This document shows positions 1,716 through 62,541 of a stretch of DNA of 64,000 bases, piece by piece (positions within the stretch are counted from its first letter, which is position 1; each line of letters begins with the position of its first letter). Source of the stretch: an uncultured Ignavibacteriales bacterium (GTDB lineage: Bacteria > Zixibacteria > MSB-5A5 > GN15 > FEB-12); the NCBI GenBank assembly GCA_964571235.1, contig CAZNAI010000003.1, forward strand, positions 77,924 to 141,923, given 5' to 3'. A program made the translations under genes and the position numbers. The notes below the pieces were generated by a model. The model was not told the origin of the DNA and did not search any database. It worked only from the letters and a program-made list of their open reading frames with translations.

Positions 1716-1801
1716 ATAGGGCGGGTTCGTCATAAAACCCGCCGTCTTCTCTCGGTGCGTCTCTGCCAAGCAGTGCAGGTCCAAAGACGGACCTGCCCTA
1801 C
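1716..1801. repeat. two hairpin repeat modules (REP-like), one with a CTAC tail
   Basis: atagGGCGGGTTcgtcataaAACCCGCC (1716-1742) and GTGCAGGTCCaaagacGGACCTGCcCTAC (1773-1801). Same architecture as the clusters listed below. Confidence 0.5.
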
Positions 1802-3660: not shown

Positions 3661-3700
3661 AAATTTCGATACAGATTTCGTTTTCACAGCCACTACTGCA

Positions 3701-3723
3701 AAGCCCGCCACGCGGGCTTTTTT
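3701..3723 (+). terminator. rho-independent terminator after the receiver gene
   Basis: AAGCCCGC-cac-GCGGGCTT followed by a T-run (3718-3723). Confidence 0.6.
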
Positions 3724-3872
3724 GATATGCGCTAGATCTTCTTGTAGGTCGAAGTCCCCTGCCGCGCCGAAGGCCCCAGCCAGCGGTGCAACCACCGCGC
3801 CACCAATCTTGACAACAAGGGGTATTTTCACCATAATCCAGTAGTTGGCGAAATCACTTTGGGAGGATTGAC

Positions 3873-11890: not shown

Positions 11891-11961
11891 CAAATCCTTC
11901 TCCCTTTGGGAGAAGGTGCGCTTCGCGAAGGGCGGATGAGGGGTGTACAATTATCACGTTT

Positions 11962-12196
11962 GTAGAGCGGGTTCGTCTTTGAACCCGCCTCTCTTCTTTC
12001 GTTCGTAGGTCAATCCCGGCCGCCAACGGCGGATCGGGGTTGACATGCAGTATCAAAAGAAGATGTCACCCGCGAAGACGCGAGTGACCTACGAAGAGTT
12101 ATGGTTTAGCACTCGTAGGGCGGGAGCCCTTCGCACTCGCCTTGTCATCGCGAATGTATGAACAAACATGGCAGGAGCACGGGGCTCCTGCCCTAC
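11962..12196. repeat. cluster of GTAG-headed hairpins (REP/REPIN-like) between convergent genes
   Basis: GTAGaGCGGGTTCgtctttGAACCCGC (11962-11988); GTAGGTCAATCCCGGCCGCCaaCGGCGGATCGGGGTTGAC (12005-12044); GTCACCCGCGaagaCGCGAGTGACCTAC (12065-12092); GTAGGGCGGGAGCC.. (12115-); GGCAGGAGCacggGGCTCCTGCcCTAC (12170-12196). Confidence 0.7.
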
Positions 12197-12298
12197 TTGA
12201 ATTTCCAATTTGTAAATACACTCCAAATACAAAGCGGCGAAGCCCCCAGGCTCGCGGCCCAGCCGCGCGGCGAAGGCCCAAGGCCGTCACCCTGCGAC

Positions 12299-12328
12299 AA
12301 AACGCCGCCGCAGAAAACTGCGGCGGCG
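12299..12328 (-). terminator. probable rho-independent terminator of the 12386..12916 gene
   Basis: CGCCGCCGCAG-aaaa-CTGCGGCGGCG (12303-12328). On the minus strand it is followed by a short U-run (complement of 12299-12302). Confidence 0.45.
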
Positions 12329-12385
12329 TAGTAGACCCGGGGTACCGCGTGGACAGCATCCCGTCCAGGAGCGATTCCGGTCGTT

Positions 12386-18629: not shown

Positions 18630-20885
18630 ATGCAGAGCTACTTGATCACTACTGGCAAATCGCTACTACATCACGCCGCTTTGGCTGTGATGTTGTGGGC
18701 GTGCTGTGCGGGCCGGGCCAACGCACAGGCATTTGAACGAATACTCGCCCCGTCGGGCAATCCGGTCGTTGTCGACACAACCCGAAGCACCTGGGTTGGG
18801 TGCGCCTTTGTCGATTTCAACAACGACGACAAACTCGATCTCTTCATCGCCGATTTCAACGGATGCCACTTGTATCGCAACGATGGCTCCGGATTCACAC
18901 GTCTCTCGACCGTCGCGATGGCGCTTGACCTCGCCACATATTATGGCACCAGTTGGGCGGATTACGACAACGACGGTGATCAGGACTGTTTTTTGGCTGG
19001 CGATGTGTCGTCTCTTTACCGTAATGACGGTAGCGAACAATTCACCCGCGTATCTCAGATCGATCAGTTTGAGGCGCGTGGCTGGAGTCCTGCCTGGGCC
19101 GACTATGATGAGGACGGTGATCTGGACATCTTGGTTGCCCATCCCAATGGATTTGTCGGCGGAGGCCCAGTACCAAATCGGCTCCTAAGAAACGAAGGCC
19201 CCCCGAACTACCAGTTCTCGCGCATCGATACCGGCGTGGTAGTCACTGGTCTTGCGCCGTACACGTCGGCCAACTTCTCCGATTTCGACCTCGACGGCGA
19301 TTTGGATCTGTTTATCGGAACCGGACCGGCTGTCGCCGTCGGCGCCCCCGATAATCTCTATCGCAATATGTTCACTGAAACCGGCGCCGCGGGATTCACG
19401 CGTATTACCACGCCGCCAATCGCCACCGACACCAACGATGGTCAGGCATGGACCTGGATTGATTATGACAACGATCGTGATCTGGACGCCTTCGTTACCA
19501 ACTGGGGTGGCGGCAACCCCGCTCTGAGACCCAATCGGCTCTATCGGAATGACAATGGAACTTTCACACGTATAACCGGCCAGCCGCTGGTGACCGACGC
19601 CGATCAGTCATTGTCAGGAGTTTGGGGCGATTACGACAACGATGGCGACCTCGATGTGGTAGTAGCCAATTCGGGCTCCCCCAACAGTTACTACCAAAAC
19701 CTGGGTGGTGGCGCTTTCTGGCGGATCGATGACGGGAGCGCCGGCGACTTGGGAGTGCGCGGTGGCAATACCGGCGCTTCGGCCGGCGACTACGATAACG
19801 ACGGCGACCTGGATTTGTTCTTCACCGGTCCGCTGGGTGGTCCAACGGGAAACCGACGCGGACTCTATCTTAATCTGAACGGCAATCTGAAAAAGTGGCT
19901 GAAACTCGAACTGACCGGCGTTCGCTCAAATCGCAGTGCGATCGGCGCGAGAGTGTGGGTATTTGCCAACACCGGGTCCGGCAGTATCTGGCAACAGCGA
20001 GAGATTTCCACACAAGATTGTTGGCTTGGGCACAACTCGCTAGTTGTTCACTTTGGACTTAAGAACGCCACTACCATTGACACTTTGCGAGTCGTCTGGC
20101 CATCAGGAATCACCTGGGATACCACCGGTGTGGCGGTCAACCAGTTCTTGCACTTGACCGAGCAGTGCCCCGACACCGACGGTGACGGCGTGACTTGTCT
20201 GGACAACTGTGAGTTTGTGAGCAATTCCGATCAATCCGACACCGACGGCGACTTTATCGGCGACGCTTGCGACGCCTGTCCGAACGATCCCCTGGACGAC
20301 ATTGATGGCGACGGAATGTGCGCCGATGTCGATCCCTGCCCGCTCGATCCGGCCAACGACGCCGACGGCGACGGTTTCTGCGCCAACGCAGACAACTGCC
20401 CGAATCTGTCAAACCCCACTCAGGCGGACGGCGACCTCGATGGTCTCGGTGATGCCTGCGATCTCTGTCCGGGAGATTCGCTTAACGACATTGATGGCGA
20501 CGGCGTGTGCGGCAATCTCGACAATTGCCCAACTCTCGTCAACGCCTTGCAGGAAGACACCGATAACGATCTGATCGGCGATTCCTGCGATAACTGTATT
20601 TCTGTCGCCAATTCAAATCAGGCCGACGCCGATCAGGATGGAATCGGCGATGCCTGTGAGACCTGCTGTCTGGGTGTCTCCGGAAATGTCGATTGTGATC
20701 TGACTCAGGGGGTAGATATCTCAGACTTGTCGGCGCTCATTGACTACTTGTATATAACATTTACTCCGCTCTGTTGCCCCCAGGAGGCCAACTGCGACGG
20801 TCAGCCGGGAGTCGATATCGCCGATCTGTCGGCTCTGATCGACTATCTGTATATCAGCTTCACTCCGACGGCGGTTTGCCAGTGA
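18630..20885 (+). CDS. secreted CRTAC1/ASPIC-UnbV-type FG-GAP repeat protein with 8 thrombospondin type-3-like repeats and a twin dockerin-like C-terminal module
   Basis: GAGGAG RBS and signal peptide. FG-GAP loops (FVDFNNDDKLDLF, WADYDNDGDQD, WADYDEDGDLD, FSDFDLDGDLD, WIDYDNDRDLD, WGDYDNDGDLD, AGDYDNDGDLD). UnbV/ASPIC string SNRSAIGARVWV..HFGL..VVWPSG. TSP3 array at 20172-20663. Tail at 20664-20885. Confidence 0.85.
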   Translation: MQSYLITTGKSLLHHAALAVMLWACCAGRANAQAFERILAPSGNPVVVDTTRSTWVGCAFVDFNNDDKLDLFIADFNGCHLYRNDGSGFTRLSTVAMALDLATYYGTSWADYDNDGDQDCFLAGDVSSLYRNDGSEQFTRVSQIDQFEARGWSPAWADYDEDGDLDILVAHPNGFVGGGPVPNRLLRNEGPPNYQFSRIDTGVVVTGLAPYTSANFSDFDLDGDLDLFIGTGPAVAVGAPDNLYRNMFTETGAAGFTRITTPPIATDTNDGQAWTWIDYDNDRDLDAFVTNWGGGNPALRPNRLYRNDNGTFTRITGQPLVTDADQSLSGVWGDYDNDGDLDVVVANSGSPNSYYQNLGGGAFWRIDDGSAGDLGVRGGNTGASAGDYDNDGDLDLFFTGPLGGPTGNRRGLYLNLNGNLKKWLKLELTGVRSNRSAIGARVWVFANTGSGSIWQQREISTQDCWLGHNSLVVHFGLKNATTIDTLRVVWPSGITWDTTGVAVNQFLHLTEQCPDTDGDGVTCLDNCEFVSNSDQSDTDGDFIGDACDACPNDPLDDIDGDGMCADVDPCPLDPANDADGDGFCANADNCPNLSNPTQADGDLDGLGDACDLCPGDSLNDIDGDGVCGNLDNCPTLVNALQEDTDNDLIGDSCDNCISVANSNQADADQDGIGDACETCCLGVSGNVDCDLTQGVDISDLSALIDYLYITFTPLCCPQEANCDGQPGVDIADLSALIDYLYISFTPTAVCQ
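20172..20663 (+). repeat. array of 8 TSP3-like calcium-binding repeats (protein-level tandem repeat inside the CDS)
   Basis: Eight units of D-x-D-x-D-(G/x)-x2-D-x-C-D-x-C-P type: DTDGDGVTCLDNC, DTDGDFIGDACDACP, DIDGDGMCADVDPCP, DADGDGFCANADNCP, DGDLDGLGDACDLCP, DIDGDGVCGNLDNCP, DTDNDLIGDSCDNC, DADQDGIGDACE. Confidence 0.8.
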
Positions 20886-32844: not shown

Positions 32845-33123
32845 GTCACCCTGAGCTTGCGAAGTCCCGCGGCATGAGCCGCAGGGGTCGAAGGGCCTCC
32901 GATGCGAGCCCTCGTGTAGGTCGAAACCCCCGCGGTTTCGACACCGTGTCTGTCACCCCGACCCCTCTTTGTCACCCCGGCGAAGGCCGGGGCCCAGTCG
33001 TGTAGGTCGGCGACCCTCGCGGTCCCGACAACTTGGCGTCACCCTGAGCCTGCGAAGTCCCGCGGCTTGAGCCGCAAGGGTCGAAGGGCCGCCCCCGTCT
33101 GTCATCCCAGCGAAAGCTGGGAC
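32845..33123. repeat. repeat cluster: 52-bp direct repeat pair plus GTAG-headed and GC-stem hairpins
   Basis: DR1 at 32845-32896 and DR2 at 33038-33089 (gtcaccctgagcYtgcgaagtcccgcggcWtgagccgcaRgggtcgaagggc, 3 mismatches). GTAGGTCGAAACCcccGCGGTTTCGAC 32916-32942; GTAGGTCGGCGACCctcGCGGTCCCGAC 33002-33029; gtcaCCCCGGCgaagGCCGGGGc 32971-32993; gtcatCCCAGCgaaaGCTGGGac 33101-33123. Confidence 0.75.
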
Positions 33124-33172
33124 CCATCTTCTCTTCGCCTTGGTACCCCACCATTCATGGCGGATTTATCAA

Positions 33173-34426
33173 CTAACCCCTTTTCTTCAATACGACGATA
33201 TACTCATTTACCATCGTTGTGTCCAAAGCTCCAACGACATTAGTAGGACTATTTTTGCTCGGCATGCGTTTGTTCGGAATATTACGCACCACCGTTTCAA
33301 TATGTTCAAACCCGTTCAATTCAAACATTTGGCTAGTTATCAGATCTGTGGGTAGAGTGACACCTTTAACCCGTCGATTTCCTACGACGTAACAAACGGT
33401 CCCTTGGGGGCGTACTACACGCGATACGTTGTCAATAGATCTCTTGTAGTCGTCATAAAATGAAACGACATCCTCGACTCGTCGGGCATCCTGATTTCGA
33501 ATTTCGCGAATAGCTAGATCAAGGCAGTCGATTCCGAAATCCAATTTTCTGAGATTTCTCATCCCACCCATTAGCAAATTATCAAGACGCTCGGCGTTTT
33601 CAAAGCCTAGCCACTGACTAGAAAGTCTCGAAAACTGGCCGTACGCAACTGTGGTTTGCGAGTCCCCGTACGGGGGTGATGTTACTACGATATCTACAGC
33701 CTCAGGATGAACAATTTCTTCCGGAATGTAATCCACAGAGTTGAAATCGAAGACGCGCGAAATTGCATCACCGTTCTTCTCTTGCATGTACATTGCTAGG
33801 CCAGATCTACACTTTCTCAACTTCGTCTGCATAAGCCTGAAGACGTCAGGATTGTGAGCGGATCTACTTTTTTCGGTCATCCGAAACAACTTGAATTCGC
33901 CGTTTCTTGTCCAAGAGGCATCCCGAACTGTCTCGCTGAATGGTACCATAAAGAAGTTGCGCACATGTTGATCGGAAATATCAAATATGAACTTTCTAAC
34001 CGTGGCCAGCTGAGATTGGATTTCCGGTGCAAACCAGAAATTGATATTTCGAAAGTTTGGAGCTTCAACCGGTCGTTCACCTTCAATACCAAAATCCCGA
34101 TTAAAGACCAATTCTTCGAATCGATTAATCACCTTGTCGAGTCGCGAAAGATCTATTGGAGTAGTCTTGGCGATCGACAATAGTCTTGCCAGCGGATTGA
34201 GATCGGTACCAATAGCATCTATTCCCCGTAAATTTGCTTCTACGAGAGACGTCCCAGAACCACAATAGGGGTCAAACAAGAGTTTGGCGTTTGAACAATG
34301 ACGGTCGATGAGTTCGCCTGCTATTTGGGGGATCATTATAGCGGGATAGCTATGAAAACAATGAGTATATCCCTTTGTGTCAGCCCCGCGAAAATCCCAC
34401 GTTGTGTCCGTATAGACTGCGCCCAC
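33173..34426 (-). CDS. type II DNA methyltransferase (amino-MTase, SPPY catalytic motif; probably N4-cytosine)
   Basis: SAM motif I LFDPYCGSGTSLVEA near the N-terminus, catalytic motif IV VVTSPPYGD about 200 aa later (alpha-like order). Divergent from the C-protein/endonuclease operon. Visibly AT-richer than its flanks. Confidence 0.85.
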   Translation of the reverse strand: MGAVYTDTTWDFRGADTKGYTHCFHSYPAIMIPQIAGELIDRHCSNAKLLFDPYCGSGTSLVEANLRGIDAIGTDLNPLARLLSIAKTTPIDLSRLDKVINRFEELVFNRDFGIEGERPVEAPNFRNINFWFAPEIQSQLATVRKFIFDISDQHVRNFFMVPFSETVRDASWTRNGEFKLFRMTEKSRSAHNPDVFRLMQTKLRKCRSGLAMYMQEKNGDAISRVFDFNSVDYIPEEIVHPEAVDIVVTSPPYGDSQTTVAYGQFSRLSSQWLGFENAERLDNLLMGGMRNLRKLDFGIDCLDLAIREIRNQDARRVEDVVSFYDDYKRSIDNVSRVVRPQGTVCYVVGNRRVKGVTLPTDLITSQMFELNGFEHIETVVRNIPNKRMPSKNSPTNVVGALDTTMVNEYIVVLKKRG

Positions 34427-34465
34427 TTATACTCCCTTACACAATCGCTTCTATAAATGTCTACT

Positions 34466-34477
34466 TACCTATAGGTA
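34466..34477. promoter_or_regulatory. perfect 12-bp palindrome in the divergent R-M promoter region (candidate C-box operator)
   Basis: TACCTATAGGTA is self-complementary. It lies 40 nt upstream of the C-protein ATG and 40 nt upstream of the methyltransferase start. Confidence 0.5.
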
Positions 34478-34517
34478 GGTGCAAATATATGCAATTTGAA
34501 GTAGTATTTCAATACCT

Positions 34518-34772
34518 ATGGGCAAGAATGTGACGTCAATCGATCAATATGTGATAGACGCAGTCAGACGAAAGCGGCTTGCGGCCGGCCTGTCGCAAGC
34601 CGAGCTAGCCGCAATTCTCAGTGTGTCTCCGGGGTTTATTGGCAAGGTGGAAAGCCCTAGGAATTCGGCCAAATACAACTTGGGGCACATCAACATCATA
34701 AGCCTGTACTTCAATTGTAGTCCGCAAACTCTTTTACCCAAGAAACCGATCAATGTCAGCCGAAAGAAGTAA
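34518..34772 (+). CDS. XRE-type HTH protein, probable R-M controller (C) protein
   Basis: HTH_3 string LSQAELAAILSVSPGFIGKVES. 84 aa; its 3' end overlaps the endonuclease ATG by 20 nt, the classical C-R arrangement. Confidence 0.75.
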   Translation: MGKNVTSIDQYVIDAVRRKRLAAGLSQAELAAILSVSPGFIGKVESPRNSAKYNLGHINIISLYFNCSPQTLLPKKPINVSRKK

Positions 34773-35508
34773 AATCATTAAGGAGTTCAAGAGAATTCGA
34801 GCACTCGGCTTCGTTCCAGCGACGAGATCTGGCGACACTGCTATAGGTAAGACATTTGAAGATCATTTGGGAGTCACCGAAAATAACTTGAAGGACCCAG
34901 ATTTTAAGGGATTTGAAGTAAAGAGCCAACGGGATTTGACAGGGTCCAAAATCACTCTCTTTACGAAGTCCCCCACCTTTCCGAAGGGTGCGAATACGAT
35001 CCTTCGCCAAAACTATGGCTCACCTGACTCGGAGTTTCCTCGAATCAAAGTTCTGCATACGTCTTGCTATTCAAATCGATTCAATACGCACTCGAGCGGT
35101 TTCGGCTTCCGGTTATTTCCCAACGATGAAGAATCGAGGCTTGAGCTTCAGATTAGGAGACTCAAAGATTCAAGGATACTTCCCGATCAGATTTATTGGG
35201 ATTATGATCGACTCCGCGCCATTACGGCTCGAAAACTGGATAATTTATTCATCGTCTATGCTGATGTGCGCAGGGAGGAAGCAAAACAGTATTTTCACTT
35301 TACTCGGTCAATGATATTTCTCGGTTTCAAATTTGAGAGTTTTCTAGAAGTTCTTCGCGAAGGAAAGGTGATGTTCGATACACGCATCGGTGCCTATAAG
35401 ACGCCAGGATCGAAGAGCTTTGGAAAAACTCACGATCATGGTAGCGGGTTTCGCGTAGATAGATCGTCGCTCGAATTGCTCTATTCGCACAAGTTTGACA
35501 TCGAGTAG
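34753..35508 (+). CDS. type II restriction endonuclease, MvaI/BcnI-like (MutH/Sau3AI-related fold)
   Basis: N-terminal G-x-T-x-E-x2-LG-x4-N-x4-PD-x2-G-x-E-x-K pattern (IGKTFEDHLGVTENNLKDPDFKGFEVKSQR). Later strings LFIVYADVRREEAKQYFHFTRS and HDHGSGFRV resemble my recollection of BcnI. Family call is from memory, not from a search. Confidence 0.7.
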   Translation: MSAERSKIIKEFKRIRALGFVPATRSGDTAIGKTFEDHLGVTENNLKDPDFKGFEVKSQRDLTGSKITLFTKSPTFPKGANTILRQNYGSPDSEFPRIKVLHTSCYSNRFNTHSSGFGFRLFPNDEESRLELQIRRLKDSRILPDQIYWDYDRLRAITARKLDNLFIVYADVRREEAKQYFHFTRSMIFLGFKFESFLEVLREGKVMFDTRIGAYKTPGSKSFGKTHDHGSGFRVDRSSLELLYSHKFDIE

Positions 35509-35797
35509 AATCTGATTTATTAACGAAATCCCTATCTCTTCCCCCCTCTTCCCACCCTCACCCGCAAGGGTATGAACAACCCTTATCCCACTCTCGCTCA
35601 CTCGCGGCCGACAGGCCACACACAGCAAAACATTTTATTTTGCTCAAACGAACCCAATTTGCGCCGTGTCGTGTCACACTCCAACCGTCTGCCCCCAAGC
35701 GTCTTGCGCGCTCTCCGTGCTGGCCGTGGCGTACACCCTCGAACCCAAAACCAAACCCATTTGCGGTGTGATCAAACCCGATTATTGGCTCTGGTGG

Positions 35798-36026
35798 CCC
35801 ACCATTTATGGTGGGTCCCTCGCCCCTTCGACACGCTCAGGGTGAAGTCAAAGAGAGATTGCTTCGGTCGCCCGTCCTTCGACGAGCTCAGGATGACGAG
35901 CGACACTTGCAATGACGAAACGGGCCGTGTGAATCGAACCCAATTCAAGCGTAGGTCACGCGCGTCTTCGCGGGTGACATCTCTATTTGACGAAGAACGT
36001 CAACCCCGAAGACGAGATTGACCTAC
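35798..36026. repeat. repeat cluster with an inverted copy of the hairpin doublet
   Basis: CCCACCatttatGGTGGG 35798-35815; ccttcgacacgctcagggtgaag 35825-35847; GTAGGTCACGCGCGtcttCGCGGGTGAC 35951-35978; GTCAACCCCGaagaCGAGATTGACCTAC 35999-36026. Confidence 0.7.
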
Positions 36027-40858: not shown

Positions 40859-41071
40859 CATTTCCTCTATATCGTCAGGCCACGCCGTGTTGACTCGCGC
40901 CGCAAGACTTGACGCGACCGCAAAAGGATTACGGGCTTCGACTCCGCTCAGCCCGACGCTAACGCGCCCACCGAACATCTCCGTTTACCTCGCACACTTT
41001 CCTTCAGATTGAGACATGCTTTGTTACTTAGCCAGAGGTTCGTGCAAAGCTGTACTCTCGATGATCGGAAC

Positions 41072-41385
41072 GTCGCCCTGAGCGGAGTCGAAGGGCGTCT
41101 TGGAGGAGAAGTTGTCGGGATCGCAAGGATCCCGACCTACAAGGATTCAGGATGTCGGGTTTCTCGTCCCCCGCCGAGGCGGGGGACTTCGGAACGACGA
41201 CCTGCAAGGTCACATATCATTTCCGAATCTCATCCCAACGCAAGCGTTGGGGCACCCGATAGTTCTTCCGTAGGTCAATCCCGTCCGCCGCCGGCGGATC
41301 GGGGTTGACATCTTTCAGCGAAATGCCGAAGACGTCACCCGCGAAGACGCGAGTGACCTACGAAGATATCGGAACACCGACCTAC
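41072..41385. repeat. cluster of GTAG/CTAC-flanked hairpins including the second copy of the 90-bp doublet
   Basis: gtcgccctgagcggagtcgaaggg 41072-41095; GTCGGGATCgcaaGGATCCCGACCTAC 41114-41140; GTCCCCCGCcgagGCGGGGGAC 41166-41187; CCCAACGcaaGCGTTGGG 41234-41251; GTAGGTCAATCCCGTCCGCCgcCGGCGGATCGGGGTTGAC 41270-41309; GTCACCCGCGaagaCGCGAGTGACCTAC 41334-41361; cgaCCTAC 41378-41385. Confidence 0.75.
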
Positions 41386-42068: not shown

Positions 42069-43736
42069 ATGCAAGCGTTCTGCAACATCCTCGCTGAAAA
42101 TTCACTCCTGCTACTATTTGTTGTCATCGGCGCGGGATACTTAGTCGGTAATATCAAGATTGCTGGATTCAGTTTCGGTGTAGCGGCGGTGCTGTTTGTT
42201 GGAATGGCGCTGGGCGCGTACGATCCTCGGTTGACCCTTCCTGAGTATATCTACATCATCGGACTGGTGCTGTTTGTCTACACGATTGGTCTCCAGGCCG
42301 GGCCTGGATTCTTTGCTTCTTTTCGCAAGCGGGGGCTCAATGTAAATCTCGCGGCGGTATTTCTGTTGGCGGTCGGTGCGTTGGTCGCCGTTATCGTGTG
42401 GAGTGTGACTGATCTGTCGGCCGGCGCGGTGGCAGGACTATTCTGCGGCTCGCTGACTAACACTCCGGCGCTGGCGGCCACAGTCGAAACAGTAAAATCG
42501 CTCACGACGGGCCTTCCGGCCGATGTCGCGCAACTACACGCCGCTAGTCCGGTGGTTTCGTATGGTCTGGCGTATCCGTTTGGCGTGCTTGGCGCGATTC
42601 TCTGGATGTACCTCTTTTCGCGGCATTACAAGATCGACTTTGCCAAAGAGGAGGCCGAGCGGCTCAGCCAATCGGGCGCGGAGACAATTCGCTCAGTCAC
42701 CTACCGGATCACCAATCCGAATGTGGCAGGCAAAACTGTCGAGCGAGTTCTGCGAACATTCGGTTACACCGATTTTGTGCTAAGTAGAATCAAGAAGGGC
42801 GAAAAGATAGAGGTGGTCAAACCGGAGACCGTGCTCTCACTCGATGACCGGATTGTCGCAGTCGGGTCCGAACGCGGACAGGAAATTGCGCGAATACTCT
42901 TTGGCGAACAGGCCGACGAACAACTGGCGGAACTGCACGAACAGATGAGTTACCGTCGGGTCTTTGTCAGCAACAAGGAAGTAGTCGGTAAGTCAATTGC
43001 CGAGTTAGAGATTCATAAATCATTCGACGGCACGGTTACCCGCGTCCGTCGCGGCGATGTTGAATTTGTCCCCTCACCTGAGACAGTACTCGAGCGGGGT
43101 GACCGTATTCTGGTCGTGTCGCGCCGTTCGCAATCCGACGCGATCGCCAAGTTCTTCGGAGATTCGGTAAAGACAATTTCCGAGGCCGATTTTCTGTCGC
43201 TCTCGCTTGGTGTCGTGCTTGGTGTGTTTTTGGGAATGATTCCGGTGCCGCTTCCCGGCGGCGTGACATTCAAACTCGGTTTTGCCGGCGGGCCATTGGT
43301 GGTTGGGCTACTGCTCGGGCGGATGGAGCGAACCGGGCCGATAATATGGGGAATGCCGTTTGCGGCCAATCTGGCTCTTCGTCAAATTGGACTGGTCTTC
43401 TTTCTGGCGGCCATCGGCACACGGGCGGGAGTAAGTTTCGGCGCGACCTTTCACCAAGGCGGCTGGATCATGATCGCCGCAGGCGCCTTGATCACCACGC
43501 TCGTCTCAGTGCTGGCGATAATTATCGGGTACCGATTTTTCAAACTGCCGATGGGGGGTGTGATGGGTCTTCTCTCCGGAATGCAAACCCAACCGGCCTG
43601 TCTGGCATTCGCCAATCAGCAAACTCAAAACGAATTGCCCAATGTTTGGTATGCGACTGTCTATCCGGCCTCGATGATCGCAAAGATCATGCTGGCGCAG
43701 ATAATTGTGTCGGTGCTGTTTCTGTTGTCGAAGTAA
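42069..43736 (+). CDS. YidE/YbjL-type (AAE family) transporter with two central TrkA-C (RCK_C) domains
   Basis: N-terminus LLLLFVVIGAGYLVGNIKIAGFSFGVAAVLFVG, duplicated membrane halves and two soluble RCK_C-like segments (..VAGKTVERVL.., ..VVGKSIAELE..GDRILVV). Confidence 0.85.
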   Translation: MQAFCNILAENSLLLLFVVIGAGYLVGNIKIAGFSFGVAAVLFVGMALGAYDPRLTLPEYIYIIGLVLFVYTIGLQAGPGFFASFRKRGLNVNLAAVFLLAVGALVAVIVWSVTDLSAGAVAGLFCGSLTNTPALAATVETVKSLTTGLPADVAQLHAASPVVSYGLAYPFGVLGAILWMYLFSRHYKIDFAKEEAERLSQSGAETIRSVTYRITNPNVAGKTVERVLRTFGYTDFVLSRIKKGEKIEVVKPETVLSLDDRIVAVGSERGQEIARILFGEQADEQLAELHEQMSYRRVFVSNKEVVGKSIAELEIHKSFDGTVTRVRRGDVEFVPSPETVLERGDRILVVSRRSQSDAIAKFFGDSVKTISEADFLSLSLGVVLGVFLGMIPVPLPGGVTFKLGFAGGPLVVGLLLGRMERTGPIIWGMPFAANLALRQIGLVFFLAAIGTRAGVSFGATFHQGGWIMIAAGALITTLVSVLAIIIGYRFFKLPMGGVMGLLSGMQTQPACLAFANQQTQNELPNVWYATVYPASMIAKIMLAQIIVSVLFLLSK

Positions 43737-43750
43737 TCGATATTCCTGTT

Positions 43751-44050
43751 CCGGCAGGTCTTGCGATGTCCGCGCCAAGCGGACAGCGTGTGACCTGCCG
43801 GTTTCATTCAGGCAAATCGTGTCAGGTCACACCTTGTCCTGCCTGCGGCGGGCCAAGTCAAGACCTGACCCAACAGTGTACCACAATCAAACGGGCAGAC
43901 GAGGGCGTCTGCCGCGCACATGTACGACTGTATTTGGACCCTTCGACAAGCTCAGGGTGAAGTCGGGAAGAGAAGGAGTTGGAAGAATAGACTACTATAA
44001 TGTCCACCGACTTGGCGTCCATCTGACTTCAGGCTGAGCCTGTCGAAGCC
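43751..44050. repeat. hairpin repeat cluster between convergent genes
   Basis: CCGGCAGGTC..(nested TGTCCGCgccaaGCGGACA)..GACCTGCCGG 43751-43801; GGGCAGACgaggGCGTCTGCC ~43893-43913; cccttcgacaagctcagggtgaag 43939-43962; caggctgagcctgtcgaagcc ~44030-44050. Confidence 0.65.
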
Positions 44051-44066
44051 TCTATTCCGATTTGTA

Positions 44067-48914: not shown

Positions 48915-51914
48915 ATGAAACAACATTCAATAATCAAATGGGGTCTAGTCGTTTCCTTGCTCGGAGCGACGGCATGGGCTTTGCCTCCCGCGCGTGCAGT
49001 TGTTGGAAACCAGGCCGCCGGGCCGACCGAGATTGACTACAGCCGCTATCTAAATGCCAACAAACTACTCGGCTTTGTTAACAATACGGGGCATCTCTTC
49101 AATGACGGGCTACAGACATTTGGAAAATTCGACGGACTGTACTATCCGTATAGCTCTACTGATGACATACTGTCGGGAGAAAATACTAAATCCGTCGTTT
49201 ACTCAGCCGGATTATGGATGGGGGGCATTGCTGCAAATGACACGTTGATCGCGATTGCAGAATACAGTACGGAGTATACTCCGGGGAATATGCTCGGCAC
49301 AAGTTTCGACCCGGATTTCATGAATTCAAAATATCGGGTATACATACTGTACGCAGATAGCATGGTCCCGTGGTACCCGGACTACGCTAATTGGCCGGTA
49401 GATCAGGGAGCGCCGGTCGACGGTGGCGGTCACCCACTACTTATCGGCAAGCAGACGGCTTGGTCGGTCTACAATGACGCCAACGGCGCGAGGCACACTA
49501 ATGACGCCAGTAGCACCGCCCCGCTGGGAATTGAAGTGCGACAAGCTGTTTCGGCGACCGATGTAGGGGCGGACGCCTACATCATCACGGTCAAATACCA
49601 GCTCTTCAACAAAGGTGGAAAGAACATCACTGGACTCTATTTGGGACTCTGGTCCGATCCCGATCTCGGCACCCCCGCCGATGATCTGGTCGGGTGCGAT
49701 ACGCTCGGCGATCTGTTCTTCTGTTATAACGCCACGAATACCGATGCCGTGTATGATTCAACGCCACCGGCTTTCGGCGGCCGGATAGTCCAAGGACCGA
49801 TTGTTCCGTCGCAAGGCGATTCAGCCTGGAGCTTCGGTCAACTCGTGCATGGATACAAGAATCTGGGCATGACGGGTTTTTCGAAGTACATCAACGGCCT
49901 GGACCCTGCCAGCAAAGCACACACATACTCCTATTTACAGGGGTTGACTCGCGATGGCTCGCCGTACATGTATGAAGGGAATTTCCTTCGCTATGTTCAT
50001 TCAGGCGACCCGATTTCTGCTACCGGTGACGTGGATGCGAATCCTTCTGACCGGCGGATGATGGCAAGTTGCGGACCGCTGGCGTTCAATCCGGGCGATA
50101 GTCAGGAAATTATTGTTCGTTATGGAGTAATTCACGGCGGCAATCGCCTTGAATCACTCAACTTGCTCAGGCTTTTGCTTAAGGATAGTCTCCGCCAAAC
50201 CGAGTGTACATCACTGACTGCATCGGTGAACGACTACGGAAGTCTCGTGAGAGTAGAACGAAGCGCAAGCTGGCTCGGCGGTGTGAACTGGGGGGGTGAA
50301 TTTTTCCAGCGCAGTACCACTTACGGCGACGAATTCTGGGGAAGCCGACTGCATCATGTTGCCAATCCCGATTCATTTGTAAATGTTCAGATTCTCTTCT
50401 CACCAATTGTCCGCCAGAAAGCCTATCGATACCTGGGACCCGATTACAACTATGCCGGGTACGAATGGGTTCCGTTTACTGTATGGGACACCGACCACCA
50501 GCGAAAGCTCAATGTCGCTTTTGTCGAATATCCAAGTTCACGGACATTCAACCAGACGTGGGATCTGGATGACTACGATCACCTCGGCGGGCGGGAGTAT
50601 CTATTCATATTTGGGTCGCCGTACCCCGGTGATCTGGCATTACCGCTGGCGGAGTATACATCGCGCAATCTTAAAGCGGATGCTGATCAACTGGATGTAC
50701 TCTATGGCGCCTGGCTTTGCCTGAGTCCATGGGGTGGCTCTATGAGTGATCTCAAACATGGTGACCGGCTGTACTTCGATGTTCAAAACCGAAATCAGAA
50801 TGGTCCGGTAAGTACCGTCGCACTTCCAGTGACCGATCTTTACTGGTGGAGCGGCCAGAAAGTGGCGATTGCCTGCCAAACAGAGCAACTGGGGTCATTT
50901 GAGGCGATCAGTTCCGATTCGGTCGTATTTTCTTTGCGGACCCATGCCGGTTACGATTCGGCCAGCGCCCGCGGCAGAGTTGAATCGGTGCGGGAGATGA
51001 GTAATAGCTCAGGCCCGGTCCTGCCGCCGCGCGATGTACGGGGATCGGGTAACAGCACGGGTGATTGGTATGTTGCTCTTTCTGACGGGAATCCGTATGG
51101 TCATCTCGATGCGCACGACTGGGAGATTCGGTTTTCTGAGGGTGGCTCGGTGTATTATTTGAGGACGCCCGCAACACTCGGTCCCGGGCGAGTTCCCTTT
51201 GAGCTTTGGGACATAGGCATTGACACGCCCGATGATCCTTCCGATGATCGACGCGTGTCGGTTGTCACCACCGATCCCGATGGAAGCAGCTCCTGGACTT
51301 TTGGAGACAGAATCTACTCTTACGAACTGCCCTATACCGAAACACCGCCAAGCGCTCTGGCCCCGACATGGACCGACTCATGTCGGATCGGATCATTCTA
51401 TTTTCAAAAAGTGTGGAGTTTTGGCTCCCTGCCGGCGACTGGGACGGTCGTTCGCTTTTCTACTTACAAGAAAATACCTACTGTCCCGCCGCTCGGCCTA
51501 ATCTCTGATCACAGTTTCAGAGGACCGCAAACAACGGCATTCCCTTCTGAGTCACAGAATTTTGTTGAGGAGTACGACATTTATTTCACGCCGAAGCCCG
51601 GACACGATTCAGTTGGAGTGTTACTCCTGAAAGACAAATTGACTGGGCTGTACCGCGGGGCAATTGACATTGTAGGGCATGTGGCCGGATCATGTTGTGC
51701 AGGGCTGACCGGAAATGTCGATTGCGATCCGGCTAACAGGGTGGATATTTCTGATCTGACAATGCTGATCGACTATCTGTATATCTCGCTAAGTCAGCCG
51801 TGTTGCATCGATGCAAGCCGGCTTGATGGCCCCGAGTTGCCGGACATTGGAGACCTAACAGCGTTAATTGACTTTTTATATATCAGCTTTACGCCACTGC
51901 CAAACTGCCCGTAG
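48915..51914 (+). CDS. 999-aa secreted protein of unknown function ending in the twin dockerin-like module
   Basis: GGAGGG RBS at 48904-48909 and signal peptide MKQHSIIKWGLVVSLLGATAWALPPARA. No catalytic motif recognised. C-terminal tail at 51693-51914 (SCCAGLTGNVDCD..DISDLTMLIDYLYISL..DIGDLTALIDFLYISFTPLPNCP). Confidence 0.8.
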   Translation: MKQHSIIKWGLVVSLLGATAWALPPARAVVGNQAAGPTEIDYSRYLNANKLLGFVNNTGHLFNDGLQTFGKFDGLYYPYSSTDDILSGENTKSVVYSAGLWMGGIAANDTLIAIAEYSTEYTPGNMLGTSFDPDFMNSKYRVYILYADSMVPWYPDYANWPVDQGAPVDGGGHPLLIGKQTAWSVYNDANGARHTNDASSTAPLGIEVRQAVSATDVGADAYIITVKYQLFNKGGKNITGLYLGLWSDPDLGTPADDLVGCDTLGDLFFCYNATNTDAVYDSTPPAFGGRIVQGPIVPSQGDSAWSFGQLVHGYKNLGMTGFSKYINGLDPASKAHTYSYLQGLTRDGSPYMYEGNFLRYVHSGDPISATGDVDANPSDRRMMASCGPLAFNPGDSQEIIVRYGVIHGGNRLESLNLLRLLLKDSLRQTECTSLTASVNDYGSLVRVERSASWLGGVNWGGEFFQRSTTYGDEFWGSRLHHVANPDSFVNVQILFSPIVRQKAYRYLGPDYNYAGYEWVPFTVWDTDHQRKLNVAFVEYPSSRTFNQTWDLDDYDHLGGREYLFIFGSPYPGDLALPLAEYTSRNLKADADQLDVLYGAWLCLSPWGGSMSDLKHGDRLYFDVQNRNQNGPVSTVALPVTDLYWWSGQKVAIACQTEQLGSFEAISSDSVVFSLRTHAGYDSASARGRVESVREMSNSSGPVLPPRDVRGSGNSTGDWYVALSDGNPYGHLDAHDWEIRFSEGGSVYYLRTPATLGPGRVPFELWDIGIDTPDDPSDDRRVSVVTTDPDGSSSWTFGDRIYSYELPYTETPPSALAPTWTDSCRIGSFYFQKVWSFGSLPATGTVVRFSTYKKIPTVPPLGLISDHSFRGPQTTAFPSESQNFVEEYDIYFTPKPGHDSVGVLLLKDKLTGLYRGAIDIVGHVAGSCCAGLTGNVDCDPANRVDISDLTMLIDYLYISLSQPCCIDASRLDGPELPDIGDLTALIDFLYISFTPLPNCP

Positions 51915-61022: not shown

Positions 61023-61050
61023 GCTCTCATCTTAGCGCGACACCATCGAA

Positions 61051-61090
61051 ATCCCCTGCTTCGCATGCGAAGCGGGGGATTACTTTTTCT
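61051..61090 (+). terminator. rho-independent terminator after the receptor/HmuY-like operon
   Basis: ATCCCCTGCTTCGC-at-GCGAAGCGGGGGAT followed by tacTTTTTcT. Confidence 0.7.
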
Positions 61091-61150
61091 TGCTTATCTA
61101 CACAGGAGCGGCGTCCCGCGTGAGGAGTTCGTCGAGTCGACAAAGAGTAT

Positions 61151-61728
61151 CAGGCGTTACGCCTGACACCACGTTGCACTACGTGATCCCCACATCGTTG
61201 CGTCGGGTCTTGCTGAGTCACGCCGTCGGCGGGACAAAGTGTGACCTGACACTCACTGTCACACTCGACCGGCAGGTCGCACACTGTTCGCTGGTTGCGA
61301 ACATCGCAAGACCCGCCGGAACGGCATAGAGAACAAATTTCACCCGCATGCGCCTGTTCAAATCCTGAACAGGGTTGCATACTTTCACAAACGCAAACTT
61401 TGCGTTCGCATAGGGTTCGAGAATGTGTTGTCCGGCAATATCTTAAACGATCTGCAATCAGGGACAATCTGGGGCATGGCGATTGCTCAATAGGTAGTCG
61501 ACCAAATACAGAACTGATGTACCAGTTTTGTTAGACCAGCCCCCGACTAACCACCGGGGGCATTTTTTTGTGGCACGGCCACGGCGTGGGGGCTTCGCCG
61601 CTTTCCATCGAGAGTGGATTTGAATTCCTTCGTAGGTCACTCGCGTCTTCGTGGGTGACATTTTGGTGCTCACCGTGGTGTCGGGCGTCCTCACCCGACA
61701 CCAATGCGGTCAGGCGGGATGCCTGACC
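61151..61728. repeat. long intergenic hairpin-repeat cluster (includes the fourth copy of the GTAGGTCAC..GGGTGAC hairpin and a terminator-like hairpin)
   Basis: CAGGCGttacGCCTG 61151-; CCGGCAGGTC..GACCCGCCGG ~61269-61320 (related to 43751-43801); CCTGTTCaaatcctGAACAGG; AACGCAAactTTGCGTT; GCCCCCG-actaaccac-CGGGGGC+T7 61539-61569; GTAGGTCACTCGCGtcttCGTGGGTGAC 61632-61659; GGTGTCGGG..CCCGACACC; GGTCAGGCgggatGCCTGACC 61708-61728. Confidence 0.7.
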
Positions 61729-62445: not shown

Positions 62446-62541
62446 GAGATTGCTTGGCCGCGTCGAGGAAGCCGCGTCTCGCAATGACGATTGGCTGAGA
62501 AGTGGTTCTAAAGTCAAGGATCCCACCGCAAGCGGTGGGGC
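62446..62541. repeat. short repeat modules downstream of tag
   Basis: gagattgcttggccgcgtcgaggaagccgcgtctcgcaatgac (related to gattgcttcggtcgcc.. at 35866-) and GGATCCCACCGCaagcGGTGGGGC 62518-62541. Confidence 0.45.

What the first reader, a model, noticed from the sequence alone, without database searches (positions are those of the whole stretch)
11962..12196. GTAG-headed hairpins with variable stems (REP-like elements) populate most longer intergenic regions
Clusters lie at 1716-1801, 11962-12196, 32845-33123, 35798-36026, 41072-41385, 43751-44050 and 61151-61728, with a lone head at ~3744. In these clusters, many hairpins of 8-16 bp stems begin with GTAGGTC(A/G) or GTAG(G/A)GC, or end with the complement (..GACCTAC, ..GCCCTAC). 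The stem closes on GTC..GAC. Examples are GTAGGTCGAAACCcccGCGGTTTCGAC, GTAGGTCGGCGACCctcGCGGTCCCGAC, GTCGGGATCgcaaGGATCCCGACCTAC and GGCAGGAGCacggGGCTCCTGCcCTAC. A conserved 5' GTAG tetranucleotide next to a palindrome is the hallmark of REP elements recognised by RAYT (Y1, IS200/IS605-like) transposases. Here the head is conserved while the stems are diverse, which is unusual for a single REP family. No RAYT gene is in the window. The clusters sit mostly between gene 3' ends.
Basis: partly seen in the sequence, partly recalled or inferred. Interest (0 to 1): 0.6.

Follow-up and report, generated by a model that had tools for sequence, protein, structure and literature searches.

The report
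REP hairpin repeats in a Zixibacteria genome
The GTAG-headed hairpins are genuine REP elements, the short palindromic repeats spread by a domesticated RAYT transposase, found here in an uncultured Zixibacteria genome: a well-known kind of element in a lineage where it has not been described.

Summary
GTAGGTCR occurs 13 times against 2.2 expected, and 12 of those lie in the 8% of the window that is intergenic. GTAG is the commonest tetranucleotide immediately 5' of hairpins. I count 17 GTAG-tagged units in seven intergenic regions. The "clusters" are mixtures, however. 43751-44050 has no GTAG head, 61151-61728 has one, and at least five unrelated repeat families share these spacers.

The units fall into three classes: A (GTAGGTCA..TGAC, subtypes A1 and A2), G (GTAGGTCG..CGAC) and C (GTAGGGC..GCC). 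The window is 100% identical to Logan contigs, and its nearest genomes are Zixibacteria MAGs. It holds no RAYT gene.

In related contigs, 12 RAYT genes are each bracketed head-outward by these REPs. They pass NCBI's REP-associated tyrosine transposase model, and HUH and the catalytic Tyr are conserved. Clade A RAYTs carry A1 upstream and inverted A2 downstream. That matches the window's three A1+A2 doublets, which look like RAYT-less REPINs.

Stems covary, flanks are conserved (TCTTC|GTAG..GAC|RTCTT), and REP content differs at orthologous spacers.

"Conserved head, diverse stems" reflects several co-resident REP families, each with its own RAYT clade, as already published. Verdict: a new member of a known kind, of low to moderate interest.

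The parts
1716..1743 (+). C-class REP with a degenerate head (ATAG): ATAG-GGCGGGTT..AACCCGCC. Left half of a head-outward dimer, 1716-1801.
   Evidence: (D20: 84% identical to 11958-11989).
1775..1801 (-). C-class REP: GTAGG-GCAGGTCC gtcttt GGACCTGC. Right half of the dimer 1716-1801.
3744..3766 (+). 5' remnant of a long G1-type REP: GTAGGTCGAAGTCCCCTGCCGCG. The closing arm is lost.
   Evidence: the 5' part aligns with full-length long G1 units in L014, L017, L001 and L007. The 3' arm (TTTCGAC) is absent.
11962..11989 (+). C-class REP: GTAGA-GCGGGTT cgtctttg AACCCGC(C).
   Evidence: (D20). The same C-REP plus A-dimer composite recurs in L007 and L021.
12005..12044 (+). A1 REP, long variant: GTAG-GTCAATCCCG[GCCGCCAACGGCGGAT]CGGGGTTGAC. 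A nested hairpin replaces the TCTT loop.
   Evidence: DNA fold of the 36-nt hairpin alone is -13.6 kcal/mol.
12065..12092 (-). A2 REP: GTAG-GTCACTCGCG tctt CGCGGGTGAC. With 12005-12044 it forms a head-outward A1+A2 doublet (REPIN-like) with a 20-nt spacer.
   Evidence: The doublet folds at -25.9 kcal/mol, z = -5.2.
12115..12141 (+). C-class REP, decayed: GTAG-GGCGGGAGC..cactcGCC. An intact relative is in L016: GTAGGGCGGGAGCCCTGCGCTCCCGCC.
12170..12196 (-). C-class REP: GTAG-GGCAGGAGC cccgt GCTCCTGCC. With 12115-12141 it forms a head-outward dimer.
32916..32942 (+). G1 REP: GTAG-GTCGAAACC cccgc GGTTTCGAC.
   Evidence: (near-identical copies in L014, L019 and L033).
33002..33029 (+). G2 REP: GTAG-GTCGGCGACC ctcgc GGTCCCGAC.
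   Evidence: copy in L015 7828-7855. One search shows the F-repeat plus G2 adjacency also in L015.
35951..35978 (+). A2-variant REP: GTAG-GTCACGCGCG tctt CGCGGGTGAC.
   Evidence: Conserved in place in the related MAG, L006 2068-2095.
35999..36026 (-). A1 REP, short form: GTAG-GTCAATCTCG tctt CGGGGTTGAC. With 35951-35978 it forms a head-outward doublet with a 20-nt spacer, ending 8 nt from the lspA stop codon.
   Evidence: -25.3 kcal/mol, z = -6.5.
41114..41140 (-). G2-like REP: GTAG-GTCGGGATC cttgc GATCCCGAC.
   Evidence: Absent from the orthologous spacer of L006.
41154..41205 (-). G3 compound REP with a mutated head (GCAG): GTCGTCGTTCCGA-[GTCCCCCGCC tcg GGCGGGGGAC]-GAGAAACCCGAC.
   Evidence: the ortholog in L006 (6962-7013) has the intact head GTAG; relatives in L026 and L011. 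RAYT flanks in L041 and L091.
41270..41309 (+). A1 REP, long variant (second copy of the window-specific nested-hairpin form).
   Evidence: (D8: 90% identical to 11998-12046).
41334..41361 (-). A2 REP, identical to 12065-12092. With 41270-41309 it forms a head-outward doublet with a 24-nt spacer.
   Evidence: D4; -28.6 kcal/mol, z = -4.4. The doublet is absent from the orthologous L006 spacer.
41365..41385 (-). Truncated G3 REP: GTAG-GTCGGTGTTCCGATATC.
   Evidence: It matches the GTAGGTCGGTGTTCC.. flank of the RAYT in L041.
61632..61659 (+). A2-variant REP, a singleton: GTAG-GTCACTCGCG tctt CGTGGGTGAC.
   Evidence: -7.5 kcal/mol, z = -4.8.

Best explanation
These are GTAG-tagged REP elements, often paired as head-outward doublets (REPIN or BIME-like). 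They are the non-autonomous partners of REP-associated tyrosine transposases (RAYT, also called TnpAREP), in an uncultured Zixibacteria genome.

At least three REP classes co-reside:
- A1 and A2, with head GTAGGTCA.
- G1 to G3, with head GTAGGTCG.
- C, with head GTAGGGC.
Each class matches the REPs that bracket a different RAYT clade in related genomes.

Proposed mechanism, inferred by homology to E. coli TnpAREP. When the GTAG strand is single-stranded, it folds into the hairpin. The RAYT reads the unpaired GTAG, the conserved lower stem (GTC..GAC) and the loop or mismatch. It then cleaves at a CT dinucleotide in the conserved flank, TCTTC 5' of GTAG or RTCTT 3' of the stem. Strand transfer follows through a 5'-phosphotyrosine intermediate and copies or moves REP doublets into other intergenic sites. 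The A1+A2 doublet is the two ends of the clade-A REPtron without the gene.

Shown here: the sequence families, intergenic restriction, stem covariation, conserved flanks, heterodimer architecture, RAYT linkage in relatives, presence/absence differences between related genomes, and intact catalytic motifs.

Inferred: binding, cleavage at CT, current activity in this genome, and any secondary host role such as 3'-end RNA stabilisation.
For: Enrichment and intergenic restriction.

Families recur across Zixibacteria assemblies. There are 33 genome loci in 5 MAGs and 44 metagenome loci. Of 158 GTAG+hairpin sites in about 302 kb, 90 start GTC and 15 start GGC.

RAYT linkage. Clade A RAYTs (L056, L079, L089) have A1 upstream and inverted A2 directly after the stop codon. 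G-type RAYTs (L018, L035, L036, L039, L040, L041, L091) are flanked by GTAGGTCGG..CCCGAC REPs. L038 is flanked by GTAGGGC REPs. L090 is flanked by GTAGGTCAGGATCC.

RAYT identity. NF047646 scores are 114-134 bits against a cutoff of 80, while the IS200 model stays below its cutoff. PDB 4ER8 matches at 1.7e-18. E. coli RayT matches at 3.7e-25. HUH, Y115, Q95, D100 and R104 are conserved, with a C-terminal GE motif like E. coli's.

Structure is selected. At the three stem pairs left free by the search pattern, 61 of 66 cells pair, against 34.2 +/- 3.5 when partners are shuffled, and 0 of 5000 shuffles reach 61.

Flanks not in the search pattern are conserved. Position -1 is C in 81 of 107 copies, positions -5 to -1 read TCTTC, and positions +1 to +5 read RTCTT. 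Each flank contains a CT, the dinucleotide cleaved by E. coli TnpAREP 5' or 3' of REP (PMC8266576).

Doublets. There are 35 head-outward pairs, 31 with 15-25 nt spacers, and 28 of the 35 are A1+A2 heterodimers. They fold with z from -4.4 to -6.5.

Turnover. REP 41114-41140 and the doublet 41270-41361 are absent from the orthologous spacer of a genome about 82-84% identical. The doublet 35951-36026 is retained there with near-identical hairpins but a diverged spacer. A derived A1 variant with a nested hairpin occurs at two window loci and nowhere else.
Against: No RAYT is in the 64-kb window. The rest of this organism's genome could not be searched, so a cognate RAYT in the same genome is not shown.

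No biochemical or transcript data exist, so mobility is inferred from comparative presence/absence only. The indel boundaries are not clean enough to define target sites.

The two A1-long/A2 doublets have different spacers. That argues against very recent whole-doublet copying.

Several units are decayed (3744, 12115, 41154, 41365, 1716), which is compatible with a declining population.

The related loci were fetched with a family-A pattern, so family-A counts there are biased upward.
Confidence: 0.85

Rival explanations
1. Fossil REPs. The units are REP or REPIN elements by origin, but this genome has lost the RAYTs. The hairpins persist only by drift, or because the host uses them as 3'-UTR stabilisers, terminator helpers or protein-binding sites.
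For: There is no RAYT in 64 kb. About 5 of 17 units are head-mutated, truncated or stem-decayed. RAYT loss with retained REPs is reported for many E. coli strains (PMC3733652). Hairpins at 35951-36026 are conserved in place while the spacer diverged, suggesting selection on the hairpins themselves.
Against: A RAYT is normally single-copy per family, so its absence from 64 kb of a genome likely several Mb in size (related complete Zixibacteria genomes are 3.5-3.8 Mb) says little. Twelve units are intact. A window-specific derived A1 variant sits at two loci. Relatives at every distance sampled carry intact RAYTs with conserved catalytic residues.
Confidence: 0.2
2. The hairpins are primarily host transcription terminators or RNA-processing signals. 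They would have arisen independently of any transposase.
For: Six of the seven GTAG-bearing spacers include at least one gene 3' end. G.T pairs on the GTAG strand outnumber A.C pairs 19 to 7, which would fit RNA folding. Di Nocera 2013 makes the same suggestion.
Against: No T-run follows the stems. The 3' flank is RTCTT, and separate canonical terminators are present nearby (3700-3723, 12302-12329, 61050-61090). Units occur in both orientations as head-outward pairs, and one dimer sits between two gene 5' ends (1716-1801). Independent origin cannot explain a shared unpaired GTAG head, conserved flanks, or the bracketing of 12 RAYT genes.
Confidence: 0.07
3. The units are MITEs derived from an IS200/IS605 insertion sequence (TnpA, with or without TnpB), or from another transposon, rather than RAYT partners.
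For: RAYTs and IS200 TnpA are homologous, with a Pfam PF01797 hit. Both use subterminal hairpins.
Against: The flanked proteins score 114-134 bits on the RAYT equivalog model and only 26-36 bits on the IS200 model, whose cutoff is 55. The REPs flank the gene in inverted, head-outward orientation, not as same-strand left and right ends. No tnpB is adjacent in any RAYT locus for which gene calls were returned. There are no matches in viral contigs.
Confidence: 0.03

Closest known systems
E. coli REP/BIME with TnpAREP (RayT, group 2 RAYT; structure 4ER8)
   Same: An unpaired 5' GTAG sits next to a hairpin. The elements are intergenic and high-copy. Inverted REP pairs are made of two different REP types (Y and Z in E. 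coli, A1 and A2 here). The RAYT gene is bracketed by REPs (a REPtron). HUH, Tyr, Q95, D100 and R104 are conserved, and a GE motif sits near the C-terminus. CT dinucleotides lie in both flanks, where E. coli TnpAREP cleaves. A conserved stem irregularity is present, a T.G at stem position 6 in A1 and A2.
   Different: The proteins are only 33-38% identical. The stems are short (9-10 bp) with a 4-5 nt loop, closer in shape to group 3 REPs. The irregularity is a single G.T rather than a two-base bulge. The host phylum is different. No biochemistry is available.
Stenotrophomonas maltophilia SMAG elements (GTAG-6 to GTAG-9), and other genomes with several GTAG families and repeat-specific REPtrons (Di Nocera 2013; Nunvar 2010)
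   Same: Several REP families with different stems share the GTAG head in one genome. Each family is tied to its own RAYT. Head-outward (HH) dimers predominate. G.T pairs occur in stems. Some units have self-complementary inner loops.
   Different: The stem and loop sequences differ. Here the heptamer GTAGGTC, that is the head plus lower stem, is shared by at least four RAYT clades that are only 42-50% identical.
Pseudomonas fluorescens REPIN-RAYT systems (Bertels and Rainey 2011; group 3 RAYT)
   Same: Two inverted REPs separated by a short spacer fold into one long hairpin. Doublets are the commonest arrangement, and the RAYT is flanked by the same REPs.
   Different: The doublets here are consistent heterodimers: 28 of 35 are A1+A2. 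Within-genome population structure could not be measured from a 64-kb window.
IS200/IS605 insertion sequences and their hairpin-ended MITEs
   Same: An HUH/Y1 enzyme acts on single-stranded hairpin ends. A tetranucleotide lies 5' of the hairpin in the position of the 'guide' sequence.
   Different: The proteins fail the IS200 model. The ends are inverted rather than on the same strand. There is no evidence of tnpB or of multi-copy genes.

Membership tests
GTAG-tagged REP superfamily (Di Nocera 2013) | A short (about 20-40 bp) palindromic unit forming a stem-loop | tested here: met
   Units are 27-28 nt, or 40-52 nt with nested loops. Stems are 8-10 bp. DNA folds range from -7 to -15 kcal/mol, with z from -3 to -4.8 for most singles. 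G2 33002 is weak (z = -1.4).
GTAG-tagged REP superfamily (Di Nocera 2013) | An unpaired GTAG motif at one end of the palindrome | tested here: met
   GTAG is the top tetranucleotide 5' of hairpins. There are 10 sites against 0.67 expected in intergenic shuffles. Fifteen of the 17 window units carry GTAG; one has ATAG and one has GCAG.
GTAG-tagged REP superfamily (Di Nocera 2013) | Many copies per genome, predominantly extragenic | tested here: inconclusive
   All 17 window units are intergenic, at about 3 per kb of spacer. There are 140 family-A units in 542 kb of related loci, but those loci were selected by the pattern. A whole-genome count for this organism is not available.
GTAG-tagged REP superfamily (Di Nocera 2013) | Compensatory stem variation defining subfamilies | tested here: met
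   At unconstrained stem pairs, 61 of 66 cells pair against 34.2 +/- 3.5 in shuffles, and 0 of 5000 shuffles reach 61.
REPtron (RAYT gene bracketed by its cognate REPs) | A tnpAREP gene immediately flanked by inverted REPs of the genome's own family | tested here: met
   Met in 12 related loci: L018, L035, L036, L038, L039, L040, L041, L056, L079, L089, L090 and L091. It is not testable for the window's own genome, and there is no RAYT in the window.
REPIN (Bertels and Rainey 2011) | Two REPs in inverted orientation with a short spacer, able to fold as one long hairpin, and commoner than other arrangements | tested here: met
   There are 35 head-outward pairs against 5 tail-tail and 6 tandem pairs. 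Spacers are 15-25 nt in 31 of the 35. The three window doublets fold at -25 to -29 kcal/mol, z from -4.4 to -6.5.
REPIN (Bertels and Rainey 2011) | A replicating within-genome population (a master sequence plus a mutant cloud) | not testable with these tools
   This needs the complete genome. The only hints are a derived A1 variant at two window loci and presence/absence differences against L006.
RAYT / TnpAREP protein family (for the flanked genes in relatives) | HUH motif and catalytic Tyr, RAYT-specific sequence signature, distinct from IS200 TnpA | tested here: met
   NF047646 scores 114-134 bits (cutoff 80). IS200 model NF033573 scores 26-36 bits (cutoff 55). H59, H61 and Y115 are invariant. 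PDB 4ER8 matches at 1.7e-18.
RAYT / TnpAREP protein family | Single copy per REP family per genome, vertically inherited | not testable with these tools
   Only isolated contigs are accessible.
RAYT / TnpAREP protein family | Strand-specific binding and cleavage of single-stranded REP at CT | not testable with these tools
   Biochemistry is required. Only the conserved CT-containing flanks are shown.
Intrinsic (Rho-independent) terminators | A GC-rich hairpin immediately followed by a run of T | tested here: not met
   The 3' flank consensus is R-T-C-T-T, with no T-run. Canonical terminators are separate features at 3700-3723, 12302-12329(-) and 61050-61090.
IS200/IS605-derived MITEs | Same-strand left and right end hairpins, and an IS200-type TnpA | tested here: not met
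   The REPs are in inverted orientation, and the proteins are below the IS200 cutoff.
CGTC-tagged REPs | An unpaired CGTC motif at one end | tested here: not met
   The heads are GTAG.

The most novel reading that the evidence does not exclude
Zixibacteria may carry a phylum-wide radiation of REPtrons. At least four RAYT clades, only 42-50% identical to each other, all read the same head plus lower stem (GTAG|GTC..GAC) and have diversified in upper-stem and loop specificity. Several REPIN populations then co-reside in one genome. The A1 and A2 sequences stay almost unchanged between genomes whose RAYTs are only 61-64% identical. If vertical, this would be an old REPIN-RAYT association outside Proteobacteria. 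The shared head would also raise the possibility of cross-mobilisation between paralogous RAYTs.
Probability: 0.3. Interest if true: 0.45.

Novelty: new member of a known kind. Interest (0 to 1): 0.25.

Why it matters
REP/RAYT systems have been characterised almost entirely in Proteobacteria. Di Nocera 2013 lists tagged REPs in 8 phyla. No paper in the searched library links Zixibacteria to RAYTs or REPINs.

This window shows a rich, multi-family REP complement in an uncultured FCB-group lineage, with clear cognate RAYT clades. That has three practical uses:
- It explains why these MAGs fragment at intergenic repeats.
- It flags spurious ORFs called across the repeats, for example 35572-36021 and 41009-41308.
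- It offers compact RAYT/REP pairs with short stems, a conserved loop and a single G.T, suitable for specificity studies.

It does not change the understanding of how REPs work.

Tried and rejected
- Perfect-stem test. Requiring at least 7 bp with the head exactly adjacent found only 3 GTAG hairpins, with GTAG ranked 59th. This was too strict because most units carry one G.T or mismatch, so I replaced it with the test allowing up to 1 mismatch.
- Energy-only scan at -7 kcal/mol. It was dominated by GC-rich coding noise and was not used for ranking.
- Rfam and tRNA scans of the window found nothing.
- Regex for HUH...Y..NP. It found one RAYT in L018 and none in the window. The RAYT HMM later superseded it.
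- Finding the window's own genome. The Tag protein (61802-62407) is not on record. The 219-aa protein (524-1183) led to Logan contigs of at most 9.5 kb, 100% identical to the window and extending it by only about 1.1 kb.
- Sample accessions. The listing of cluster members on ten Logan RAYT hits returned none, so a same-organism RAYT could not be identified.
- P0003 locus. No DNA was available.
- Orthologous comparison at 43737-44066. Synteny with L021 ends at the permease stop codon, so nothing could be learned about that cluster.
- Literature string search for the non-GTAG repeats returned only irrelevant hits.
- Viral contigs hold no family-A match.
- Considered and rejected on sequence grounds: CRISPR arrays (no regular spacing), integron attC sites (no R'/R'' cores) and operator palindromes (too many copies, an unpaired head and RAYT linkage).
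Full report

Largely yes. GTAGGTCR occurs 13 times in the window against 2.19 +/- 1.59 in dinucleotide-preserving shuffles, and none of 100 shuffles reaches 13. Twelve of the 13 fall in intergenic DNA. Intergenic DNA is 5,325 nt, or 8.3% of the window, once spurious ORFs lying over the repeats are set aside.

Three tests address the head-next-to-hairpin claim:
- Among hairpins with at least 8 bp and at most one mismatch, GTAG is the commonest tetranucleotide immediately 5' of the stem. It precedes 9 of 332 hairpins, where about 0.8 is expected. That is 3.0% of all GTAGs, against at most 1.2% for any other tetramer.
- Within intergenic DNA, 10 GTAG+hairpin sites are seen against 0.67 +/- 0.79 in 300 shuffles, with a maximum of 3.

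The focal interval 11962-12196 holds five tagged units.

Several corrections are needed:
- Cluster 43751-44050 has no GTAG head.
- Cluster 61151-61728 has only one, at 61632.
- GTAGRGC is enriched overall (19 against 6.9), but only four copies sit on hairpins.
- Only a third to a half of intergenic hairpins are tagged.
- The other hairpins are canonical terminators or members of at least five other repeat families.

**2. Anatomy**

I count 17 tagged units plus one remnant, with coordinates. They fall into three classes.

- Class A closes GTCA..TGAC around a TCTT loop.
  - A1 is GTAGGTCAATCCCGTCTTCGGGGTTGAC. It occurs at 35999-36026, and as a window-specific long form with a nested hairpin in the loop at 12005-12044 and 41270-41309.
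  - A2 is GTAGGTCACTCGCGTCTTCGCGGGTGAC. It occurs at 12065-12092 and 41334-41361, with variants at 35951-35978 and 61632-61659.
- Class G closes GTCG..CGAC.
  - G1: 32916-32942.
  - G2: 33002-33029 and 41114-41140.
  - Compound G3: 41154-41205, with its head mutated to GCAG.
  - Truncated G3: 41365-41385.
  - 5' remnant of a long G1: 3744-3766.
- Class C has head GTAG(G/A)GC and closes GGC..GCC. It occurs at 1716-1743 (head ATAG), 1775-1801, 11962-11989, 12115-12141 (decayed) and 12170-12196.

Three A1+A2 pairs and two C pairs are head-outward dimers. As single-stranded DNA the dimers fold at -20 to -29 kcal/mol, with z from -4.2 to -6.5.

**3. Whose genome is this?**

The first 8.4 kb of the window is 100% identical to Logan contigs from SRR13076506, SRR13076518 and SRR13076512.

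A scan of one genome per GTDB species with the family-A pattern hit only five MAGs. Four are labelled Zixibacteria. The fifth, CAYVWS01, is labelled Ignavibacteriales.

CAYVWS01 is the nearest relative. It is syntenic with the window at 76-84% nucleotide identity.

A metagenome scan gave 44 more loci. Viral contigs gave none.

**4. The RAYT test**

The window has no RAYT. An HMM built from 84 RAYTs finds nothing at E<1e-3.

Relatives do have them. Twelve RAYT genes were recovered, and every one is bracketed head-outward by GTAG-tagged REPs.

| RAYT group | Loci | Flanking REPs |
|---|---|---|
| Clade A | L056, L079, L089 | A1 upstream; inverted A2 directly after the stop codon |
| G type | L018, L035, L036, L039, L040, L041, L091 | GTAGGTCGG..[variable inner hairpin]..CCCGAC on both sides |
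| Clade C | L038 | GTAGGGCAGAACC.. and ..GGTTCCGCCCTAC |
| Other | L090 | GTAGGTCAGGATCC.. |

- The clade-A arrangement is exactly the A1+A2 layout of the window's doublets.
- The flanks of L041 and L091 are the G3 form seen at 41154-41205 and 41365-41385.
- L036 lies in the same MAG (JACRAV01) that carries family-A REPs.

Evidence that the proteins are RAYTs:
- They score 114-134 bits on NCBIfam NF047646, 'REP-associated tyrosine transposase' (cutoff 80). They fall below the IS200 cutoff.
- They match PDB 4ER8, E. coli TnpAREP, at 1.7e-18.
- They are 33-38% identical to E. coli RayT.
- They keep HUH, Y115, Q95, D100 and R104, and have a C-terminal GE motif like E. coli's.
- Identity is 61-80% within clade A, 50-80% within the G type, and 40-50% between clades.

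**5. Evidence that the hairpin, head and flanks are the selected unit**

- The family-A search pattern left three stem pairs unconstrained. Among 22 distinct variants, 61 of 66 cells still pair, against 34.2 +/- 3.5 when 3' partners are shuffled, and 0 of 5000 shuffles reach 61.
- A T.G at stem position 6 recurs in A1, A2 and other variants.
- G.T outnumbers A.C by 19 to 7 on the GTAG strand. This is weak evidence because the variants are related.
- Flanks outside the pattern are conserved. Positions -5 to -1 read TCTTC, with C at -1 in 81 of 107 copies. Positions +1 to +5 read RTCTT.
- The dimer architecture is specific. There are 35 head-outward pairs against 5 tail-tail and 6 tandem. Spacers are 15-25 nt in 31 of the 35, and 28 of 35 are A1+A2 heterodimers.

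**6. Turnover**

I compared the window with the CAYVWS01 MAG at orthologous spacers.
- The doublet 35951-36026 is retained at the orthologous site. Its hairpins are nearly identical but its spacer has diverged.
- REP 41114-41140, the doublet 41270-41361 and the truncated unit 41365-41385 are absent from the orthologous spacer.
- The G3 unit at 41154-41205 is shared, with an intact GTAG in the relative.
- The nested-hairpin A1 variant occurs at two window loci and in no other locus.

These differences fit gain and loss of units. The indel edges are too diverged to define target sites.

**7. Mechanism**

This rests on homology. E. coli TnpAREP binds single-stranded REP strand-specifically, requires GTAG, makes base contacts to GTAG and the lower stem, and cleaves at a CT 5' or 3' of the REP. 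Group 3 enzymes depend on loop positions (PMC8266576).

By homology I propose the following steps:
1. The Zixibacteria RAYTs recognise the folded GTAG strand. They read GTAG, the GTC..GAC lower stem, and the TCTT loop or the G.T.
2. They cut at the CT in the TCTTC or RTCTT flank.
3. They disseminate head-outward doublets.

The A1+A2 doublet is the clade-A REPtron minus its gene. The binding, cleavage and current-activity steps are inferred, not shown. A secondary host role at mRNA 3' ends is possible and untested.

**8. Comparison with known systems**

Everything structural here is already described:
- GTAG-tagged REPs in more than 80 species of 8 phyla.
- Co-resident families with repeat-specific REPtrons.
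- Predominance of HH dimers.
- G.T pairs in stems.
- Self-complementary inner loops.
- Preference for tandem and convergent spacers.

These are reported in Di Nocera 2013 (PMC3733652). REPINs are in PMC3116915, and RAYT groups are in PMC5581495.

Spacer context here agrees: two convergent, four tandem and one divergent.

What is new is the host lineage and the particular families. No paper in the library mentions Zixibacteria together with RAYT or REPIN. The observation that the GTAGGTC heptamer is shared by several divergent RAYT clades is a modest extension.

**9. Verdict**

These are real REP or REPIN elements with cognate RAYTs in the lineage. The 'unusual' aspect is explained by multiple families, and part of the cluster list is wrong. 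This is a new member of a known kind. Interest is 0.25, and confidence in the explanation is 0.85.

The main gap is that the organism's own RAYTs could not be looked for. The attempts that led nowhere are. The string search also found nothing.

Noticed in passing
window 33173-35508: A Type II restriction-modification pair. An N4/N6 DNA methylase lies at 33173-34426(-) and an MvaI/BcnI-family endonuclease at 34753-35508(+). The pair is bracketed by repeat clusters at 32845-33124 and 35798-36026. The sequence upstream of the 35951 doublet does not align with the related MAG (L006), so this may be an inserted island.
   Followed up: partly
window 32845-32896, 33038-33089, 35824-35848, 35868-35900, 40933-40958, 41072-41097, 43939-43963, 44030-44050: A 'D' repeat family without a GTAG head: GTCRCCCTGAGC..GTCGAAGGGC and its inverse. 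It forms the inverted termini of a 173-bp MITE-like unit at 40928-41100, which has two copies at about 82% identity in L017. It also forms the termini of 43939-44050. More than 30 hits occur in other Zixibacteria loci. From memory, similar strings occur in many phyla; this was not tested.
   Followed up: partly
window 35855-35916, 53811-53853, 62446-62488: An 'E' repeat: GAGATTGCTTCG..(hairpin)..TCGCAATGAC. The copy at 35855 has a D unit nested in its loop. The copy at 53811 lies inside ORF 53298-54185(-). About 20-27 hits occur in related loci. No literature was found by string search.
   Followed up: partly
window 32971-32994, 33101-33124: An 'F' hairpin repeat: GTCAYCCCRGCGAARGCYGGGRCC. The F unit followed by a G2 REP recurs as a block in L015 at 94% identity over 48 nt.
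   Followed up: no
window 43751-43801, 43821-43869, 61202-61250, 61269-61319: Four long (about 50 nt) imperfect hairpins with no GTAG head. Their lower stem, GGCAGGTC..GACCTGCC, resembles the stem of the C-class REP at 1775-1801.
   Followed up: partly
window 41146-41258: A 110-nt non-coding block upstream of the DedA-family gene (41429). It is about 95% identical to the related MAG (L006), while the flanking genes are about 82-84% identical. It contains the G3 REP and a second hairpin, CCCAACGC aa GCGTTGGG. There is no Rfam match.
   Followed up: no
window 20680-20866, 51709-51895, 53087-53279: Paired, roughly 59-nt dockerin-like coding repeats (..DISDLSALIDYLYISFTP..) lie at the C-terminal ends of three large secreted-type proteins. 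FG-GAP-like DxDxDG repeats lie at 18952-19826.
   Followed up: no
window 11962-12092; L007 3359-3492; L021 3308-3462: A higher-order composite, a C-class REP next to an A1+A2 doublet, recurs at different loci and genomes (78% identity over 145 nt with L007). This suggests BIME-like clusters that are copied or conserved as blocks.
   Followed up: partly
window 35572-36021, 41009-41308, 43705-44037, 61150-61467, 12099-12359, 1730-2029: ORFs of 86-149 aa run straight across the repeat clusters. The two tested (35572-36021 and 61150-61467) have no Pfam hit. They are probably spurious and would be miscalled as genes.
   Followed up: partly
L056 780-1560; L079 5960-6680: Around clade-A RAYT genes the REPs form an alternating array: A2-inverted, 29 nt, A1, RAYT, A2-inverted, 29 nt, A1 and so on. 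The gene therefore sits inside a BIME-like tandem of doublets rather than between a single pair.
   Followed up: no
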